64,000 nt of DNA from Escherichia coli (lineage in GTDB: Bacteria; Pseudomonadota; Gammaproteobacteria; Enterobacterales; Enterobacteriaceae): NCBI RefSeq assembly GCF_017348835.2, contig NZ_CP071375.1; one strand, given 5' to 3'. Of the stretch, positions 51,067-56,069 are shown in pieces (position 1 is the first letter of the stretch; every line of letters begins with the position of its first letter). The notes beneath the pieces were generated by a model. The model was not told the DNA's origin. It worked only from the letters and a program-made list of their open reading frames with translations, and made no database searches. The translations under genes were made by a program, and so were the position numbers.

Positions 51067-51536
51067 TTTGCTGCTCCTCATCATATCGACCCTGCAAGGC
51101 CGATTAGTTTCTCCACAAAACAGAGAAGAACACCTGTGGTGGCCGCCGCCCGGATGGATTGGGTTATGAGCCCGTCGTCCGGTGATGCTCTTCTCTGTTT
51201 TGTAAAAAGGACGGTACCAGCCGGAAGCAAGGGTACAAGCTGGTACCGCCAGGACTACACACAGCATAAAGTTGTGGTGCCGGGTGCCCTCCCGGTGCCT
51301 GGCGAAGGTTGCACACCAGGCGGGTGGGTATCCACAGAAGGTCGACTGTCAGCCTCAACCTTAACCCGCGTGCGCTGAGCCGCATTCACCACAACGCTAA
51401 GGATTCTCTCTGGTTGAAAATACTTAGCTGTTATGTGCCTGCTTTTAGCCACATCAGGCGAGGTGGACCTGGTTATTCCCCAACAACAAGGATTCGGTTA
51501 ATCTGGATATCCCCAACAACAATAAGAGTATTCAAT

Positions 51537-52052
51537 GTGATCGCTGAATTAACGGCAGCAATGACGGCTATTCGTGAAACAGCCCAGATTGCAAAACTAA
51601 TGAACGAGGCAAAAACTCAAGCTGAAGTAAATGCGGCTATTGGTGAGCTGAACTCAAAGCTTGCGTCTATTCAGCGCGAATGCGTGTCTCTCGTTGAACT
51701 GGTGGGCTCTTATCAAGAAATAAATGCTTCTCTCAAAGCTAAAATTGCAGAATTCGAAAACTTTGAGGCTCAGACGGAAGGCTATATCCTTAACCAACTT
51801 GAGTCGGGTACTTTTGTATACTCGAAGGAGGTAATCGTGAACGGTGGCAGCATAACCATGCATCTTTGCCCAAAATGTTTTGGACAAAAGATAGTATCGA
51901 TACTTCAACCATTCCCGGTTAGCGAAGATGAGCTTTTTCATAAAAGCAGGTGCCTCCACTGTGAAAATAAGTTTCTGATGAATAAAAATCCGGATTACGT
52001 ATCGCCTCCATCCATTGAGGAGTTGTCCAGAAAACTTAACGGCAATCTGTAG
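51537..52052 (+). CDS. orphan protein: N-terminal heptad-rich helix plus C-terminal CxxC...CxxC zinc ribbon; convergent with pL
   Basis: ~171 aa from GTG 51537 (or 163 aa from ATG 51561); protein-like composition; own terminator at 52092-52115. Confidence 0.55.
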   Translation: MIAELTAAMTAIRETAQIAKLMNEAKTQAEVNAAIGELNSKLASIQRECVSLVELVGSYQEINASLKAKIAEFENFEAQTEGYILNQLESGTFVYSKEVIVNGGSITMHLCPKCFGQKIVSILQPFPVSEDELFHKSRCLHCENKFLMNKNPDYVSPPSIEELSRKLNGNL

Positions 52053-52091
52053 ATTACTACTGTTGTGGATATCCAGATTGTTAAAGAGCTA

Positions 52092-52115
52092 AGCGTCCTG
52101 TAGGGCGCTTTTTTG
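52092..52115 (+). terminator. intrinsic terminator of the orphan plus-strand gene
   Basis: agcgtcc tgta gggcgct followed by TTTTTT. Confidence 0.6.
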
Positions 52116-52280
52116 TTGCTAACGAATCATCCTGGACTTCATATGCCCCAGGCGGCTACTTCGTGGGCGTCCTGCCTGTTCGTTTTTGACATTTACTGAC
52201 TGCTTACGACACATGCACCGTGTTGCAACCAGATTTTGTTGTAATCCTGTAGTTGGTCTGGAACAAAAGATAAAATTAAA

Positions 52281-52317
52281 TTGCGAGATATGCAAGCGAT
52301 ATTTGCGAGGTATGCAA
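52281..52317. promoter_or_regulatory. OL-type operator pair with likely leftward promoter pL
   Basis: Two 15-bp sites ttgcgagatatgcaa and ttgcgaggtatgcaa, 22 bp apart, just past the 3' end of cI; same motif as sites between cI and cro. Confidence 0.55.
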
Positions 52318-52371
52318 ATTTATAGGTAGTAAAAAGCCACCTTTCGGTGGCCGATGGATGGGATATTGAGG

Positions 52372-53064
52372 TTAATTATGTCTCTTAAGGGTTTGCGACT
52401 GACTGATTAAGACCTTTCCAAAGACCATGAATCGGTGTTCGTTTTCGCTAGTAATTCCCCATTCACGGTAAATCTGGTTATCAGAAATCACCAGCAGTTT
52501 GTCAGGAATCATTTGAAGTCTTTTAACGTATATTTTGTCATCAAAACCAAAGACATATATACCATCACCATCAAACTGATTGATGCTGACATCAACGAAG
52601 ATGAGATCTCCTGGCTCAATGGTTGGACACATACTGTCCCCACGAACGTTGATAACTTTGATGTGATTGGCTGGTCGTCCGCCGAACATTGATACAGCAT
52701 TATCAGTTCTGTATTCGATGGCATGAATCACATCAATGACATCACCGCCCTGGATAAGGCCATTTCCCGCACTGGCACTGATATCCAGCATTTCAATACG
52801 GAACACATCCTTCACCTGCGCAACATCCTCATTATTACTGTTTTTATATACAGTATTACTTTTGTGGGCAGAGGTAAAGAGATCAGCAATATCAACACCT
52901 AAGCTCTTGGCAATATTACTCAGTGTTTGTTCGGTAAATTGTTTTTGCTTACCCGTTTCTAAGCGCGAGATGTTCGCCGCATCTACTCCTATTGCTTCAG
53001 CGAGATCGGCGATTTTCATGTTCTTCGCTTGGCGAAGTTGTCTGACTCGGTTTCCTATGTTCAT
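52372..53064 (-). CDS. cI: CI-type prophage repressor (XRE HTH plus S24 LexA-like peptidase domain)
   Basis: 230 aa; N-terminal HTH (MKIADLAEAIGVDAANISRLETGK); C-terminal GDSM ... K peptidase motif. Confidence 0.85.
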   Translation of the reverse strand: MNIGNRVRQLRQAKNMKIADLAEAIGVDAANISRLETGKQKQFTEQTLSNIAKSLGVDIADLFTSAHKSNTVYKNSNNEDVAQVKDVFRIEMLDISASAGNGLIQGGDVIDVIHAIEYRTDNAVSMFGGRPANHIKVINVRGDSMCPTIEPGDLIFVDVSINQFDGDGIYVFGFDDKIYVKRLQMIPDKLLVISDNQIYREWGITSENEHRFMVFGKVLISQSQTLKRHN

Positions 53065-53084
53065 GCGTTTATTACATTTCTTTA

Positions 53085-53147
53085 TTGCGTGATAAGCAAA
53101 TCAACTTGCGCAAAATAATTGCGTGAAATAACATGCATAACGCGCAA
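53085..53147. promoter_or_regulatory. OR operator region with divergent pRM/pR
   Basis: ttgcgtgataagcaa (53085-53099), ttgcgcaa core, atgcataacgcgcaa (53133-53147) between divergent cI and cro. Confidence 0.55.
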
Positions 53148-53161
53148 TATTTGGAGGGCAT

Positions 53162-53422
53162 ATGCAATCACCATTACGAAATGTGCGTAAGGCGCATGGT
53201 TTCACTTTGCAGCATGTTGCTGCGGGTGTTCAAGTCAATCCAGCGACGTTGAGTCGTATTGAGAGGCTGGAGCAGATTCCATCTATCGAGCTTGCAGAAC
53301 GTTTAGCCAATTTTTTTAAGGGTGAAGTCAGCGAAATGCAGATTCTTTATCCGGCACGTTTTCAATCTAGCCAAAACCAGAATGGGTTTAAACCACAGGA
53401 ACAGGAGGTGAACCGTGGGTAA
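53162..53422 (+). CDS. cro: Cro-like HTH regulator
   Basis: 86 aa; HTH (GFTLQHVAAGVQVNPATLSRIE); GGAGGG upstream; divergent from cI. Confidence 0.75.
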   Translation: MQSPLRNVRKAHGFTLQHVAAGVQVNPATLSRIERLEQIPSIELAERLANFFKGEVSEMQILYPARFQSSQNQNGFKPQEQEVNRG

Positions 53423-53966
53423 GCATCACTGGAAAGTAGAAAAACAGCCTGAGTGTTACGTGAAAGCTGTCAGAAAAACTATCGCAGCGTTGCCGGGGGG
53501 GTACGCTGAAGCTGCTGACTGGCTGGATGTAACAGAGAACGCATTATTTAACCGCCTTCGTGCCGATGGCGATCAGATTTTCCCGCTGGGATGGGCAATG
53601 ATTTTGCAACGTGCTGGTGGAACTCACTTCATTGCTGACGCTGTGGCGCAGTCTGCAAATGGCGTCTTTGTGTCTCTTCCTGATGTCGAGGATGTGGACA
53701 ACGCCGATATCAACCAACGCCTGCTGGAAGTCATTGAACAGATCGGCAGTTATTCAAAACAGATTCGTTCAGCAATTGAAGACGGTGTAGTGGAACCGCA
53801 TGAGAAGACAGCAATTAACGATGAGCTGTACCTCTCAATTTCGAAGCTGCAGGAGCATGCAGCACTGGTCTACAAAATCTTTTGCGTTTCAGAAAGTAGT
53901 GACGCCCGCGAGTGTGCAGCTCCGGGCGCCGTGGCGTGTCGTGACTGTGGAGAAACTAACGCATGA
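53415..53966 (+). CDS. CII-like / YdaT-like regulatory protein
   Basis: 183 aa; position after cro; overlaps cro end. Confidence 0.55.
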
Positions 53967-55254: not shown

Positions 55255-55743
55255 ATGAGTCTTTTGAATGACGTTCAGAAATTCATTGAAGCCCATCCGG
55301 GCTGTACTTCCGGAGACATTGCGGATGCTTTTGCAGGTTACTCACGGCAGCGCGTTCTGCAGTCAGCAAGCAAGTTACGTCAGAGTGGGCGTGTGGCTCA
55401 CCGTTGTGAAGGAGATACACACAGACATTTCCCGCGCCTGACTGAGAGAGCGCAGGATCCGGAACCACAACCAGTTCGTGAAACCAGACCTGTGCGCAAT
55501 TTCTATGTCGGCACTAACGACCCGCGGGTGATTTTGTGCCTGACCCGCCAGGCGGAAGAACTGGAGTCCAGGGGCTTATACCGTCGTGCTGCAACGGTGT
55601 GGATGGCGGCATTCCGTGAAAGCCACTCCCAGCAAGAGCGAAACAATTTTCTTGCGCGTCGTGAGCGGTGTTTACGGAAAAGCAGCAAGCGCGCTGTATC
55701 GGGTGAAGAGTGGTATCTGTCAGGGAATTACGTGGGGGCTTAA
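55255..55743 (+). CDS. hypothetical regulator, possibly PerC-family-like
   Basis: 162 aa from MSLLNDVQ; GGGGG 7 nt upstream; basic C-terminus with LYRRAATVWMAAF motif. Confidence 0.4.
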   Translation: MSLLNDVQKFIEAHPGCTSGDIADAFAGYSRQRVLQSASKLRQSGRVAHRCEGDTHRHFPRLTERAQDPEPQPVRETRPVRNFYVGTNDPRVILCLTRQAEELESRGLYRRAATVWMAAFRESHSQQERNNFLARRERCLRKSSKRAVSGEEWYLSGNYVGA

Positions 55744-56069
55744 TGACGACGTTAACTCAATGCCAGCAGCAGGTGCTGGATATGCTGATTTCTTACCAGA
55801 AAGAACGTGGCTTCCCGCCAACCAATCAGGAGGTGGCTACCATGCTGGGATACCGTTCAGTGAATGCAGCGGTGGAGCATCTTCGCGCACTGGAGAAAAA
55901 AGGCGTCATCACGATAAAGCGTGGCGTGGCCCGGGGCATCACGCTTCATACCGCGGTGAAGGACGACGACAGCGAGGTGGCCGGGATTATCCGCGCACTG
56001 CTTGCTGGTGAGGAAAACGCCAGGCTGCGTGCAACCCACTGGTTACATGAGAGGGGCCTGAAAGTATGA
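55743..56069 (+). CDS. LexA N-terminal DNA-binding-domain-only paralogue (no S24 peptidase domain)
   Basis: 108 aa MTTLTQCQQQVLDMLISYQKERGFPPTNQEVATMLGYRSVNAAVEHLRALEKKGVITIKRGVARGITL aligns along the whole LexA winged-helix domain ([68 protein letters not shown]). Confidence 0.7.
   Translation: MTTLTQCQQQVLDMLISYQKERGFPPTNQEVATMLGYRSVNAAVEHLRALEKKGVITIKRGVARGITLHTAVKDDDSEVAGIIRALLAGEENARLRATHWLHERGLKV

What the first reader, a model, noticed from the sequence alone, without database searches (positions are those of the whole stretch)
52836..52855. Near-consensus SOS box inside the cI coding sequence
Minus-strand sequence TACTGTATATAAAAACAGTA (CTGT-N8-ACAG with AT-rich spacer and TA flanks) lies in the linker-coding part of cI (codons NTVYKNSNN). 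A bare CTGT-N8-ACAG is expected about once per strand in 64 kb by chance, but this copy also matches the flanks and spacer composition of the LexA consensus TACTGTATATATATACAGTA, and the same prophage encodes a LexA-domain paralogue.
Basis: seen in the sequence. Interest (0 to 1): 0.45.

Follow-up and report, generated by a model that had tools for sequence, protein, structure and literature searches.

The report
SOS box guarding a gene-within-cI
A perfect binding site for the bacterial DNA-damage repressor LexA sits inside a prophage repressor gene, is conserved across many enterobacterial prophages, and lies just upstream of a hidden ribosome-binding site and start codon, so DNA damage probably switches on a shortened, DNA-binding-less copy of the phage repressor.

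Summary
Window 52836-52855 reads TACTGTATATAAAAACAGTA on the cI sense strand. This is identical to the E. coli umuD and sbmC SOS boxes and is the only good LexA-type site in the 64 kb.

It is not chance. In 34 of 36 cI homologues with at least 47% amino-acid identity (SfII, mEp460, Stx2a phages, ST64B, Fels-1, and prophages from about 14 genera), CTG-N10-CAG sits at the same codons of the disordered linker. Third codon positions there are frozen while the amino acids and the spacer vary.

About 45 nt downstream, box-bearing genes, and only those, carry a Shine-Dalgarno tract built from rare AGR/GGR codons. It is followed by an in-frame GTG/ATG, usually 13 codons before the Ala-Gly cleavage site, at the start of the S24 domain (31/34 versus 0/18).

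Best reading: a LexA-repressed internal promoter (TTTACC-17-TACTGT) drives a nested gene for a C-terminal-domain-only, UmuD-like isoform of CI, which likely modulates induction. LexA binding, the transcript and the protein are all inferred.

Published Fels-1 data show that LexA cleavage is not required for induction, so the role is modulatory. The phage LexA-DBD paralogue is not coupled to the box. I found no prior description.

The parts
52836..52855 (-). SOS box (LexA operator), TACTGTATATAAAAACAGTA on the cI sense strand; near-palindromic
   Evidence: Sequence read. Identical to the umuD and sbmC boxes. Index 0.14/0.88. Only site with index <=9 in the window. Positionally conserved in 34 of 36 clade members. 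Frozen third codon positions.
52372..53064 (-). cI repressor gene (230 aa; HTH 7-64, disordered linker 67-85, Peptidase_S24 104-218; Ala99-Gly100 cleavage motif SASAG; GDSM and KR catalytic motifs)
   Evidence: ORF. 100% aa / 99.7% nt identity to SfII cI. Pfam domains. Model. Alignments.
52873..52878 (-). Putative -35 hexamer TTTACC of the inferred internal promoter. It lies within the Leu-Phe-Thr codons, 17 nt upstream of TACTGT.
   Evidence: Fixed-register promoter-like pattern across the clade. Weak, and confounded by coding constraint. Not found by the stricter consensus scan.
52850..52855 (-). Putative -10 hexamer TACTGT, which is the left half-site of the SOS box. The predicted transcription start is about 52842-52844 on the minus strand.
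   Evidence: Inferred only; no transcript data.
52826..52830 (-). Shine-Dalgarno-like GAGGA, 10 nt upstream of GTG codon 84
   Evidence: A clade-wide SD tract built from rare AGR/GGR codons. Specific to box-bearing genes.
52808..52818 (-). Second SD-like stretch GCAGGTGAAGGA, immediately upstream of GTG codon 87 (duplex with the 16S 3' end -8.5 kcal/mol)
52372..52815 (-). Inferred nested in-frame ORF for a CTD-only isoform. It starts at GTG codon 84 (52815-52813) and/or GTG codon 87 (52806-52804), giving 147 or 144 aa, and shares the cI stop codon.
   Evidence: Best SD-preceded internal in-frame start of the gene. GTG at codon 87 in 24/29 Val codons versus 19% elsewhere. Co-occurrence with the box 31/3/0/18. 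The start coincides with the first CTD strand.
52765..52770 (-). Codons Ala99-Gly100, the predicted RecA-stimulated self-cleavage site. It would be retained 13-16 residues from the N-terminus of the nested product.
   Evidence: Invariant SASAG motif. Cleavage products of the homologue FsoR were seen after mitomycin C (PMC3121763).
52335..52352 (-). Intrinsic terminator just after the cI stop; it would end both the cI and the nested transcripts
   Evidence: Also annotated in SfII.
53085..53099 (.). cI/Cro operator TTGCGTGATAAGCAA in OR. Related copies lie at 52281-52295 and 52303-52317 (OL). The motif is unrelated to the SOS box.
55743..56069 (+). Phage LexA-DNA-binding-domain-only paralogue (108 aa). 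A possible secondary ligand of the box in this phage, but not coupled to the box across the clade.
   Evidence: Pfam LexA_DNA_bind 1-65. Distribution among phages.

Best explanation
The 20-mer is a high-affinity operator for host LexA, placed in the only part of cI where the protein tolerates almost any sequence: the disordered inter-domain linker.

Its left half-site, TACTGT, doubles as the -10 element of a weak internal sense-strand promoter. In this phage the -35 is TTTACC at 17 bp. In another subclade the -35 is poorer but a TG extended -10 is present. LexA bound to the box would occlude this promoter.

When LexA is cleaved during a strong SOS response, a short mRNA would start inside the box. 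It would carry a Shine-Dalgarno tract and an in-frame GTG (codon 84 and/or 87). It would therefore encode only the C-terminal S24/dimerisation domain of CI (about 144-147 aa), with the Ala-Gly cleavage site near its N-terminus. That architecture resembles UmuD.

This DNA-binding-less isoform most likely forms mixed dimers with full-length CI, or acts on it in trans, and so tunes the threshold, speed or irreversibility of induction. It may also act on heteroimmune repressors that share the conserved C-terminal domain.

Shown here: the sequence identity to validated operators; nucleotide-level conservation of the box; a conserved SD tract plus start codon that co-occurs with the box; and coincidence of the start with the domain boundary.

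Inferred: LexA binding, the internal promoter and transcript, synthesis of the isoform, and its dominant-negative or modulatory action.
For: 1. Operator quality.
- The site is identical to the umuD and sbmC boxes.
- The index is 0.14, or 0.88 with those two left out.
- It is unique in the window.

2. Conservation of the box as DNA.
- The box sits at nt 201-210 of cI in SfII, mEp460, Stx2a_1447, ST64B, Klebsiella phages, Flotzy, phiNP, ENT47670, Fels-1 and an O104:H4 prophage.
- It is also present in 27 of 29 genome loci with at least 47% identity, from about 14 genera. It is nearly always the only index <=9 site in about 8 kb.
- Third-position entropy is 0.0 at codon 71 and codon 75, although the amino-acid entropy at codon 75 is 2.14. 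It is 0.19 at codon 76.
- The gene-wide mean is 1.46, and the invariant Ala99/Gly100 codons score about 1.9.
- Val72 becomes Gly in two lineages while CTG is kept.
- The spacer varies freely.

3. The nested start.
- The best SD-preceded in-frame start of the whole gene lies at codons 84-88 in most members.
- Arg is encoded by AGR in 19/21 cases in the tract versus 138/470 elsewhere.
- Gly is encoded by GGR in 28/34 versus 204/584.
- Val87 is GTG in 24/29 versus 136/723 elsewhere, and is ATG in two lineages.
- The box versus SD-start table is 31/3/0/18, Fisher 3e-11, and the start lies 13 codons before the cleavage-site Gly in 24 of 31.
- Linker SD strength is -8.2 versus -3.65 kcal/mol in box-less homologues.
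- The three clade members with a lost or degenerate box (L107, L110, L122) also lack a usable start.

4. The start coincides with the first CTD strand, after a low-confidence linker.

5. The promoter.
- A fixed-register sense-strand promoter-like pattern scores above the 90th background percentile in 73% of sequences, against 11% for the antisense strand.
- TG extended -10 elements occur where the -35 is weak.

6. Published western data.
- C-terminally tagged FsoR, a clade member carrying the box, SD and GTG, gives 'cleavage products' (plural) after mitomycin C (PMC3121763).
- This is compatible with an extra C-terminal species but does not demonstrate one.
Against: - No binding, transcript or protein data exist for this element.
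- The promoter is weak (about 5 nats). It is missed by the stricter consensus scan, and its -35 lies in conserved Leu-Phe-Thr/Ser codons, so its conservation cannot be separated from coding constraint.
- The apparent -35/TG compensation rests on essentially two subclades.
- dRNA-seq of SL1344 lists for ST64B cI only a leaderless start at the ATG and a start 292 nt upstream, with no internal start. Those were non-SOS conditions, however, and the stored supplement is truncated.
- Fels-1 remains mitomycin-inducible in a lexA3(Ind-) host (PMC3121763). LexA-controlled expression therefore cannot be essential for induction.
- The internal SD could also be read on full-length mRNA, which would make the isoform partly constitutive.
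- The statistics are not corrected for phylogeny, although there are 29 clusters at 85% nt identity.
Confidence: 0.55

Rival explanations
1. LexA binds the box but there is no internal promoter. Bound LexA acts as a roadblock or attenuator for RNA polymerase coming from PRM or PRE. It thereby sets the ratio of full-length cI mRNA to truncated transcripts. The internal SD-GTG is read from the full-length mRNA.
For: - The operator is high-affinity and sits in the transcribed body of cI.
- The internal promoter is weak and unproven.
- ST64B cI mRNA is leaderless, so an SD-led internal start on the same mRNA could compete well.
Against: - The logic is poor. LexA loss during SOS would then raise cI expression just as the prophage should induce.
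- A roadblock does not explain the fixed 17-bp register to a -35-like hexamer, or the TG extended -10 in the subclade with a poor -35.
- It also does not explain why the box and the SD-start are gained and lost together.
Confidence: 0.17
2. The box controls an antisense (+ strand) promoter. After LexA cleavage, its transcript runs back through the cI N-terminal coding region towards OR and cro, interfering with cI expression.
For: - The right half-site read on the + strand (TACAGT) is -10-like.
- SOS-controlled antisense RNAs are known in E. coli (own knowledge: tisB/istR, symE/symR).
Against: - Antisense promoter-like scores exceed the 90th background percentile in only 11% of sequences, with no consistent -35 or register.
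- The region that would hold the -35 is the most variable part of the linker.
- This model does not explain the sense-strand SD-GTG.
Confidence: 0.07
3. The relevant ligand is the phage's own LexA-DNA-binding-domain paralogue (55743-56069), not host LexA.
For: - The paralogue has a complete LexA_DNA_bind domain.
- By eye, its recognition helix is similar to that of LexA (RSVNAAVEHL versus RSPNAAEEHL; the LexA sequence is from memory).
- It co-occurs with this cI in SfII, mEp460, Stx2a_1447, 1720a-02 and the O104:H4 prophage.
Against: - It was not detected in ST64B, the Klebsiella phages, Flotzy, phiNP or ENT47670, which keep the box.
- It is present in phages with other cI types, such as SfV, SfIV, cdtI and Stx2c phages.
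- It may bind the box as a secondary, uncleavable LexA mimic during lytic growth, but it cannot explain clade-wide conservation.
Confidence: 0.05
4. The box has no regulatory function. It is a chance match in an AT-rich, Asn-rich linker, a by-product of a conserved T-V-x-x-x-S peptide, an mRNA hairpin, or a short homology patch for module exchange between the N- and C-terminal domains.
For: - The bare CTGT-N8-ACAG core is expected 0.58 times per window.
- The site lies at a domain junction in a mosaic gene family.
Against: - Synonymous and non-synonymous changes both preserve CTG/CAG.
- Only the bases LexA reads are fixed, while the spacer drifts.
- The arms never co-vary, as a hairpin would allow.
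- The exact identical stretches are only about 6 + 5 bp, too short for homologous exchange.
- Shuffled windows give no site of this quality.
Confidence: 0.03

Closest known systems
LexA-controlled antirepressor modules of temperate phages (coliphage 186 Tum, Gifsy GfoA/GftA/GfhA, N15 AntC)
   Same: The DNA-damage signal reaches the prophage through a host LexA operator placed in front of a small phage product, and that product acts on the immunity repressor (PMC3121763 for Gifsy; the others from own knowledge).
   Different: - The putative product is not a separate gene. It is the repressor's own C-terminal domain, nested in frame inside cI.
- The repressor keeps a RecA-type self-cleavage site.
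- In the homologue Fels-1, LexA cleavage is not required for induction. The LexA arm is therefore an accessory layer rather than the trigger.
E. coli umuDC operon / UmuD
   Same: - The operator sequence is exactly the same.
- The regulated product would be an S24-domain-only protein of about 140 aa with a short N-terminal arm carrying a RecA-stimulated cleavage site.
- UmuD' is the closest solved structure by sequence to the C-terminal domain.
   Different: - There is no umuC-like partner; a terminator follows the cI stop.
- The domain is that of a phage CI repressor, and similarity to UmuD is only at family level (E about 2e-4).
- Operator identity is expected for two near-consensus sites and does not imply common descent.
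Nested in-frame truncated isoforms that antagonise the full-length protein (P22 sieB/esc, Tn5 transposase/inhibitor, lambda S107/S105; own knowledge)
   Same: An internal SD and start codon in the same frame give an N-terminally truncated protein that can form inactive mixed oligomers with the full-length form.
   Different: Here the internal unit appears to have its own stress-regulated (LexA) promoter, and the protein concerned is the master immunity repressor. I found no such case described for a CI-type repressor.
Lambda CI / LexA self-cleaving repressors
   Same: HTH plus S24 architecture, an Ala-Gly site, a Ser/Lys dyad, leaderless PRM mRNA in the ST64B homologue, and RecA-type cleavage shown for FsoR.
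   Different: Lambda cI has no reported LexA operator or nested C-terminal-domain gene (own knowledge). Box-less relatives at 45% identity or less (P22-like c2, HK022-like, BTP1) lack both features.

Membership tests
Gammaproteobacterial LexA operator (SOS box) | CTGT-N8-ACAG palindrome with TA flanks and an AT-rich spacer | tested here: met
   TACTGTATATAAAAACAGTA at 52836-52855. Identical to the umuD and sbmC boxes.
Gammaproteobacterial LexA operator (SOS box) | Low heterology index relative to validated sites | tested here: met
   Index 0.14, or 0.88 leaving out umuD and sbmC. Validated K-12 sites range from 0.14 to 9.2 on the same matrix.
Gammaproteobacterial LexA operator (SOS box) | Conservation at orthologous positions beyond coding constraint | tested here: met
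   34 of 36 clade members carry it. Third-position entropy is 0-0.19 at box codons versus a gene mean of 1.46.
Gammaproteobacterial LexA operator (SOS box) | LexA binding in vitro or in vivo | not testable with these tools
   No ChIP or footprint data were found for any clade member.
Gammaproteobacterial LexA operator (SOS box) | Overlap with a promoter that gives an SOS-inducible transcript | tested here: inconclusive
   A weak fixed-register TTTACC-17-TACTGT pattern is present but is missed by the consensus scan. Non-SOS dRNA-seq of ST64B lists no internal start.
Lambda CI / LexA-type self-cleaving repressor | N-terminal HTH DNA-binding domain plus C-terminal Peptidase_S24 domain | tested here: met
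   HTH_3/HTH_26 at residues 7-64 and Peptidase_S24 at 104-218. The model agrees.
Lambda CI / LexA-type self-cleaving repressor | Ala-Gly cleavage site and Ser/Lys catalytic dyad | tested here: met
   SASA99-G100, GDS144M and K181R are invariant or nearly so in the alignments.
Lambda CI / LexA-type self-cleaving repressor | RecA-stimulated cleavage during induction | not testable with these tools
   Shown by western blot only for the 51%-identical homologue FsoR of Fels-1 (PMC3121763).
LexA-controlled antirepressor module (186 Tum / Gifsy / N15 type) | A separate small gene, unrelated to the repressor, behind a LexA box | tested here: not met
   The inferred product is in frame inside cI and is the repressor's own C-terminal domain.
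LexA-controlled antirepressor module (186 Tum / Gifsy / N15 type) | Prophage induction requires LexA cleavage | tested here: not met
   The Fels-1 late-operon fusion is still mitomycin-inducible in lexA3 (PMC3121763). This was shown for the homologue, not for this phage.
Nested in-frame internal-start isoform | Conserved SD plus an in-frame start codon inside a longer ORF, with codon choice serving the SD | tested here: met
Nested in-frame internal-start isoform | Detection of the shorter protein | not testable with these tools
   The only hint is the plural 'cleavage products' of C-terminally tagged FsoR. The figure is not available.
UmuD-like SOS protein | Co-transcribed Y-family polymerase partner (umuC) | tested here: not met
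   A terminator follows directly after the cI stop, and OL operators follow that. No such ORF is nearby.

The most novel reading that the evidence does not exclude
A widespread clade of enterobacterial CI repressor genes hides a second, LexA-repressed gene. The clade includes Fels-1, ST64B, SfII, mEp460 and some Stx2a phages, and is present in about 19% of complete E. coli genomes. On severe DNA damage, the nested gene would produce the repressor's own C-terminal domain as a free UmuD-like protein. That protein would poison or trans-cleave full-length CI. Because the C-terminal domain is much more conserved than the DNA-binding domain, it might also act on heteroimmune repressors of co-resident prophages. 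This would give a built-in, self-derived antirepressor and a channel for cross-talk between prophages.
Probability: 0.4. Interest if true: 0.85.

Novelty: new variant of a known kind. Interest (0 to 1): 0.74.

Why it matters
Prophage induction is usually taught as two alternatives. Either RecA-stimulated repressor self-cleavage (lambda), or a LexA-controlled antirepressor acting on an uncleavable repressor (186, Gifsy, N15).

This element suggests a third wiring, in which both arms are packed into one gene. A cleavable CI would have a linker that encodes a LexA operator, and a C-terminal half that is also a separate, SOS-controlled cistron.

The family is medically relevant. It includes serotype-converting Shigella phages, Stx2a phages of O157:H7, a prophage of the O104:H4 outbreak strain, and Salmonella ST64B and Fels-1. 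It is also common, with 1039 of 5426 complete E. coli genomes carrying it.

If true, the element would affect how induction thresholds, Shiga-toxin release and cross-induction in polylysogens are modelled. It also makes a clean, cheap set of experiments possible, because the box, the SD and the start codon can each be destroyed by synonymous mutations.

More generally, it shows that intragenic LexA sites, often dismissed as non-functional, can mark nested genes.

Tried and rejected
1. The bare-core statistic is uninformative: 41% of shuffles have a hit. I replaced it with full-matrix scoring and comparative analysis.

2. The first viral-contig scan returned only loci with 97-100% identity. It was useless for measuring conservation and served only to show that 77 of 80 carry the exact 20-mer.

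3. The consensus promoter scan found nothing in 52000-53500. A softer PWM was needed, and it gives only a weak promoter.

4. The antisense-promoter idea was scored and found weak and inconsistent.

5. Coupling to the LexA-DBD paralogue was rejected on the paralogue's distribution.

6. Rare codons at a domain boundary could reflect co-translational folding rather than an SD. I rejected this because box-less homologues with the same domain architecture lack the purine tract.

7. An RNA hairpin or a recombination-linker reading was rejected on the pattern of variation.

8. Seven literature searches found no description of the box or of a nested isoform.

9. Public transcription start site (TSS) data gave little.
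- The D23580 tables held only expression values.
- The Hammarlöf supplements are not held.
- The Kröger papers are not held.
- The SL1344 table shows a leaderless cI start but no SOS condition.
- STnc1310 turned out to lie downstream of cI, not inside it.

10. No Rfam family overlaps the site.
Full report
**1. The observation**

The + strand at 52836-52855 reads TACTGTTTTTATATACAGTA. The reverse complement, which is the sense strand of the gene it lies in, reads TACTGTATATAAAAACAGTA. The site sits in ORF 52372..53064 (-), 230 aa, at codons Asn70-Thr-Val-Tyr-Lys-Asn-Ser76.

The protein is identical to CI of Shigella phage SfII, and the gene is 99.7% identical at nucleotide level. It is 93% identical at nucleotide level to the repressors of mEp460, several Stx2a/Stx2k phages and a prophage of E. 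coli O104:H4 C227-11. It is 77% identical to Salmonella ST64B Sb38 and about 70% identical to Klebsiella and other phage repressors. The same gene is present in 1039 of 5426 complete E. coli genomes.

Pfam finds an HTH domain at residues 7-64 and Peptidase_S24 at 104-218. An AlphaFold model gives helices 3-63, a low-confidence linker at 67-85, and a first C-terminal-domain strand at 87-92.

**2. Is it more than chance within the window?**

The bare core CTGT-N8-ACAG occurs once, against an expectation of 0.58, so on its own it is not significant.

The whole 20-mer, however, is identical to the SOS boxes of E. coli K-12 umuD and sbmC, as listed in PMC3009722 Table 4. I built a Berg-von Hippel/Lewis-type heterology index from the 16 K-12 boxes in that table. 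The site scores 0.14, or 0.88 when umuD and sbmC are left out. That is the second-best value of all, on a scale where validated sites run up to 9.2.

It is the only site with index <=9 in the 64 kb. The next best site scores 10.25. Shuffled windows give 0.2 sites at <=9, 0.05 at <=5 and none at <=1 in 20 shuffles.

**3. Conservation of the box**

I aligned the gene from nine phages. I then scanned about 60 prophage loci recovered from one genome per species.

- A box with index <=9 lies at nt 201-210 of the gene in 27 of 29 genome loci with at least 47% amino-acid identity. These come from Citrobacter, Kluyvera, Klebsiella, Trabulsiella, Pantoea, Rosenbergiella, Providencia, Serratia, Buttiauxella, Enterobacter, Erwinia, Hafnia, Mixta and Atlantibacter.
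- The box is also present in SfII, mEp460, Stx2a_1447, ST64B, two Klebsiella phages, Flotzy, phiNP, Cronobacter ENT47670, Fels-1 and the O104:H4 prophage.
- It is almost always the only such site in about 8 kb.
- Of the two genome loci below that threshold, Cedecea (L107) keeps CGCTGT-N8-ACAGCG, so it retains the core, and Yersinia similis (L110) has lost the box.
- Erwinia persicina (L122, 41%) has also lost it.
- None of 16 more distant homologues at 45% identity or less has the box. These include P22-like c2, BTP1 and HK022-like repressors.

A codon-aware alignment of 34 sequences falls into 29 clusters at 85% nucleotide identity. In it, the linker is the most variable part of the protein, yet the box bases are frozen:

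| Position | Third-position entropy | Note |
|---|---|---|
| Codon 71 (ACT) | 0.0 | |
| Codon 75 (always NNC) | 0.0 | The residue varies among Tyr, Asn, His, Ser and Asp (amino-acid entropy 2.14) |
| Codon 76 (AGT) | 0.19 | |
| Gene-wide mean | 1.46 | |
| Invariant Ala99 and Gly100 | about 1.9 | |

In two lineages Val72 becomes Gly, which converts CTGT to CTGG but keeps CTG. The eight spacer bases vary freely.

This is the signature of selection on the bases that LexA reads. It is not what selection on the peptide, an RNA hairpin or a recombination patch would produce. The phage's own operators (TTGCG-N5-WGCAA, at 53085 and at 52281/52303) are unrelated to the box.

**4. A hidden start codon downstream of the box**

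Reading the aligned linkers showed a second conserved nucleotide feature. About 40-55 nt downstream of the box there is a purine-rich GGAG/GAGG tract. It is followed 5-10 nt later by an in-frame GTG or ATG.

- In most box-bearing genes this is the best Shine-Dalgarno-preceded internal in-frame start of the entire gene. In about 14 of them it is the strongest anti-SD match anywhere in the gene.
- The tract is built from codons that are otherwise avoided. Arg is AGA/AGG in 19 of 21 cases there versus 138 of 470 elsewhere (p = 2e-8). Gly is GGA/GGG in 28 of 34 versus 204 of 584 (p = 5e-8).
- Val87 is GTG in 24 of 29 cases versus 19% of Val codons elsewhere (p = 8e-13), and it is ATG in two lineages. 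The amino acids of the tract differ between lineages while the SD character persists.
- A box versus SD-start contingency table gives 31/3/0/18 (Fisher 3e-11). The start lies exactly 13 codons before the Gly of the Ala-Gly site in 24 of 31.
- The three clade members with a lost or degenerate box also lack a usable start.
- Box-less homologues share the same domain architecture, yet their linkers have much weaker SD-like content. The median is -3.65 versus -8.2 kcal/mol (p = 2.5e-7). This argues against a generic explanation based on rare codons at a domain boundary.

In the window, the candidate starts are:

- GTG codon 84 (52815-52813), with GAGGA 10 nt upstream.
- GTG codon 87 (52806-52804), with a duplex energy of -8.5 kcal/mol against the extended 16S tail.

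Either start coincides with the structural beginning of the C-terminal domain. The product would be 144-147 aa, made of an S24/dimerisation domain with the cleavage site 13-16 residues from its N-terminus. The closest solved structure by sequence to this domain is UmuD'.

**5. Is there a promoter?**

The stricter consensus scan finds none. A softer position-weight score finds the same arrangement on the sense strand in almost all members. A -35-like hexamer sits exactly 17 nt upstream of TACTGT, the left half-site. In this phage the hexamer is TTTACC at 52878-52873.

- Scores exceed the 90th percentile of the background in 73% of sequences, against 11% for the antisense strand. The antisense strand shares the box's own -10-like bias and so serves as a control.
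- In the subclade with a poor -35 (TTCTCT), a TG is present at the extended -10 position. It is created by the third base of a variable codon.
- These are effectively two subclades, so this counts as few independent events.
- The -35 also lies in conserved Leu-Phe-Thr/Ser codons. The promoter is therefore plausible but not established.
- LexA on the box would cover the -10 and the predicted start, about 52842-52844.
- A terminator directly after the cI stop (52352-52335) would end the transcript.

**6. Experimental data found**

- dRNA-seq of S. Typhimurium SL1344 lists two starts for the ST64B repressor (SL1344_1967). One is at the A of its ATG, meaning a leaderless mRNA as in lambda. The other is 292 nt upstream. 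No internal start is listed, but no SOS condition was sampled (PMC3293720 supplement).
- The Fels-1 repressor FsoR (STM0898) is 51% identical to the window protein. It carries the box (TACTGTAAATAAATACAGTG) followed by AGAGGAGA-N6-GTG.
- Lemire et al. (PMC3121763) tagged FsoR at its C-terminus and saw 'cleavage products' after mitomycin C.
- They also showed that a Fels-1 late-operon fusion remains inducible in a lexA3(Ind-) host.
- The clade's repressors are therefore RecA-cleavable, and LexA cleavage is not needed for induction. Whatever the LexA-controlled unit does, it modulates induction rather than triggers it.
- The plural 'products' is compatible with an additional C-terminal species. 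The figure is not available to me, so this is only a lead.

**7. The LexA-domain paralogue**

ORF 55743-56069 encodes a LexA_DNA_bind-only protein. It sits in a dam-lexA-like-rusA module. A tblastn search finds it in E. coli/Shigella phages with several different cI types, including SfV, SfIV, cdtI and Stx2c phages. It does not find it in ST64B, the Klebsiella phages, Flotzy, phiNP or ENT47670, which keep the box. The paralogue may bind SOS boxes as an uncleavable mimic during lytic growth. It does not explain the box.

**8. Interpretation**

The best-supported model is a LexA operator that gates a nested cistron for a C-terminal-domain-only CI isoform.

From established knowledge of LexA/CI-family proteins, three properties bear on this. 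The C-terminal domain mediates dimerisation. C-terminal fragments can cleave intact repressor in trans (Kim and Little 1993, cited in PMC8951638). UmuD cleaves intermolecularly. On that basis the isoform most plausibly forms DNA-binding-deficient heterodimers with CI or acts on it in trans.

Because the operator is of the tightest class, the isoform would appear only after deep LexA depletion. That would add a second, damage-severity-dependent input to a RecA-cleavable repressor.

My confidence in each step is:

| Step | Confidence |
|---|---|
| The site is a functional LexA operator | about 0.85 |
| A real internal translation start | about 0.75 |
| A LexA-repressed internal promoter drives it | about 0.55 |
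| The product has a dominant-negative role | about 0.35 |

The rivals are a roadblock model, an antisense promoter, the paralogue as ligand, and no function at all. They are listed with their evidence in the Rival explanations section.

**9. Novelty**

SOS boxes, LexA-controlled antirepressors and nested in-frame isoforms are each known. I found no description of this combination in seven full-text searches or in the Fels-1, ST64B or Stx-phage papers I read. The combination is a LexA operator in the linker codons of a cleavable CI repressor, coupled to a nested gene for its own C-terminal domain. Subscription-only literature could not be searched. I therefore class it as a new variant of a known kind.

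Noticed in passing
window 55743-56069 (+): This is a LexA DNA-binding-domain-only protein of 108 aa, with no S24 domain, in a dam-lexA-like-rusA module. Its recognition helix resembles that of LexA, so it may act as an uncleavable SOS-box binder during lytic growth. It is found in phages with several different cI types.
   Followed up: partly
window 53062-53080 (- strand upstream of cI ATG); ST64B SL1344_1967: The cI mRNA is probably leaderless. SL1344 dRNA-seq puts the ST64B start at the A of the ATG. The window has the same TGTAAT-N6-ATG arrangement with no SD. A second ST64B start lies 292 nt upstream and is PRE-like.
   Followed up: partly
window 52281-52295, 52303-52317, 53085-53099, about 53117-53131: These are repressor operators of the form TTGCG-N5-WGCAA. 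The OL pair lies immediately downstream of the cI terminator (52335-52352), so a leftward promoter presumably starts there.
   Followed up: partly
L154 11684-11703 (E. coli O104:H4 C227-11 prophage): A second SOS-like box, CACTGTTCATAAATACAGTA (index 6.1), lies between rusA and a KilA-N-domain gene in this related prophage. It may mark a LexA-controlled antirepressor-type gene. The window has no equivalent site.
   Followed up: no
L094 680-699; L119 about 5785; L122 about 2539; L137 about 1199: Other prophage loci show isolated SOS-like boxes outside the repressor gene. One example in Providencia phage PSTCR7lys lies upstream of a 59-aa ORF in the rightward operon. These may be separate LexA-controlled genes in phages whose cI lacks the intragenic box.
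   Followed up: no
window 51201-51425 (-): A sub-threshold Rfam match to the sRNA family STnc100 (36.5 bits against a gathering score of 47, E = 1.4e-5) lies in the region between the leftward early genes and the immunity region.
   Followed up: no
window about 51600-52052 (+), terminator 52091-52110: A rightward ORF sits opposed to the leftward early operon and has its own terminator. It encodes a coiled-coil-like N-terminus and two CxxC pairs (HLCPKCF...CLHCENKF). It looks like a moron or accessory gene inserted between OL and the early-left genes.
   Followed up: no
L006 3501-4207 (E. coli SCU-306): A heavily frameshifted copy of the whole immunity region (85% identity, every gene annotated as a pseudogene) still has an intact box, TACTGTATGTAAAAACAGTA. 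This could be a decayed prophage or a low-quality assembly.
   Followed up: no
PMC8951638 (Stx-phage CI survey): This survey reports an annotated Stx-phage 'CI' clade (Clade III) that lacks the HTH domain altogether and is 60% identical to a full-length clade. Stand-alone C-terminal-domain-only CI proteins may therefore exist as separate genes. I did not check whether they relate to the nested ORF proposed here.
   Followed up: no
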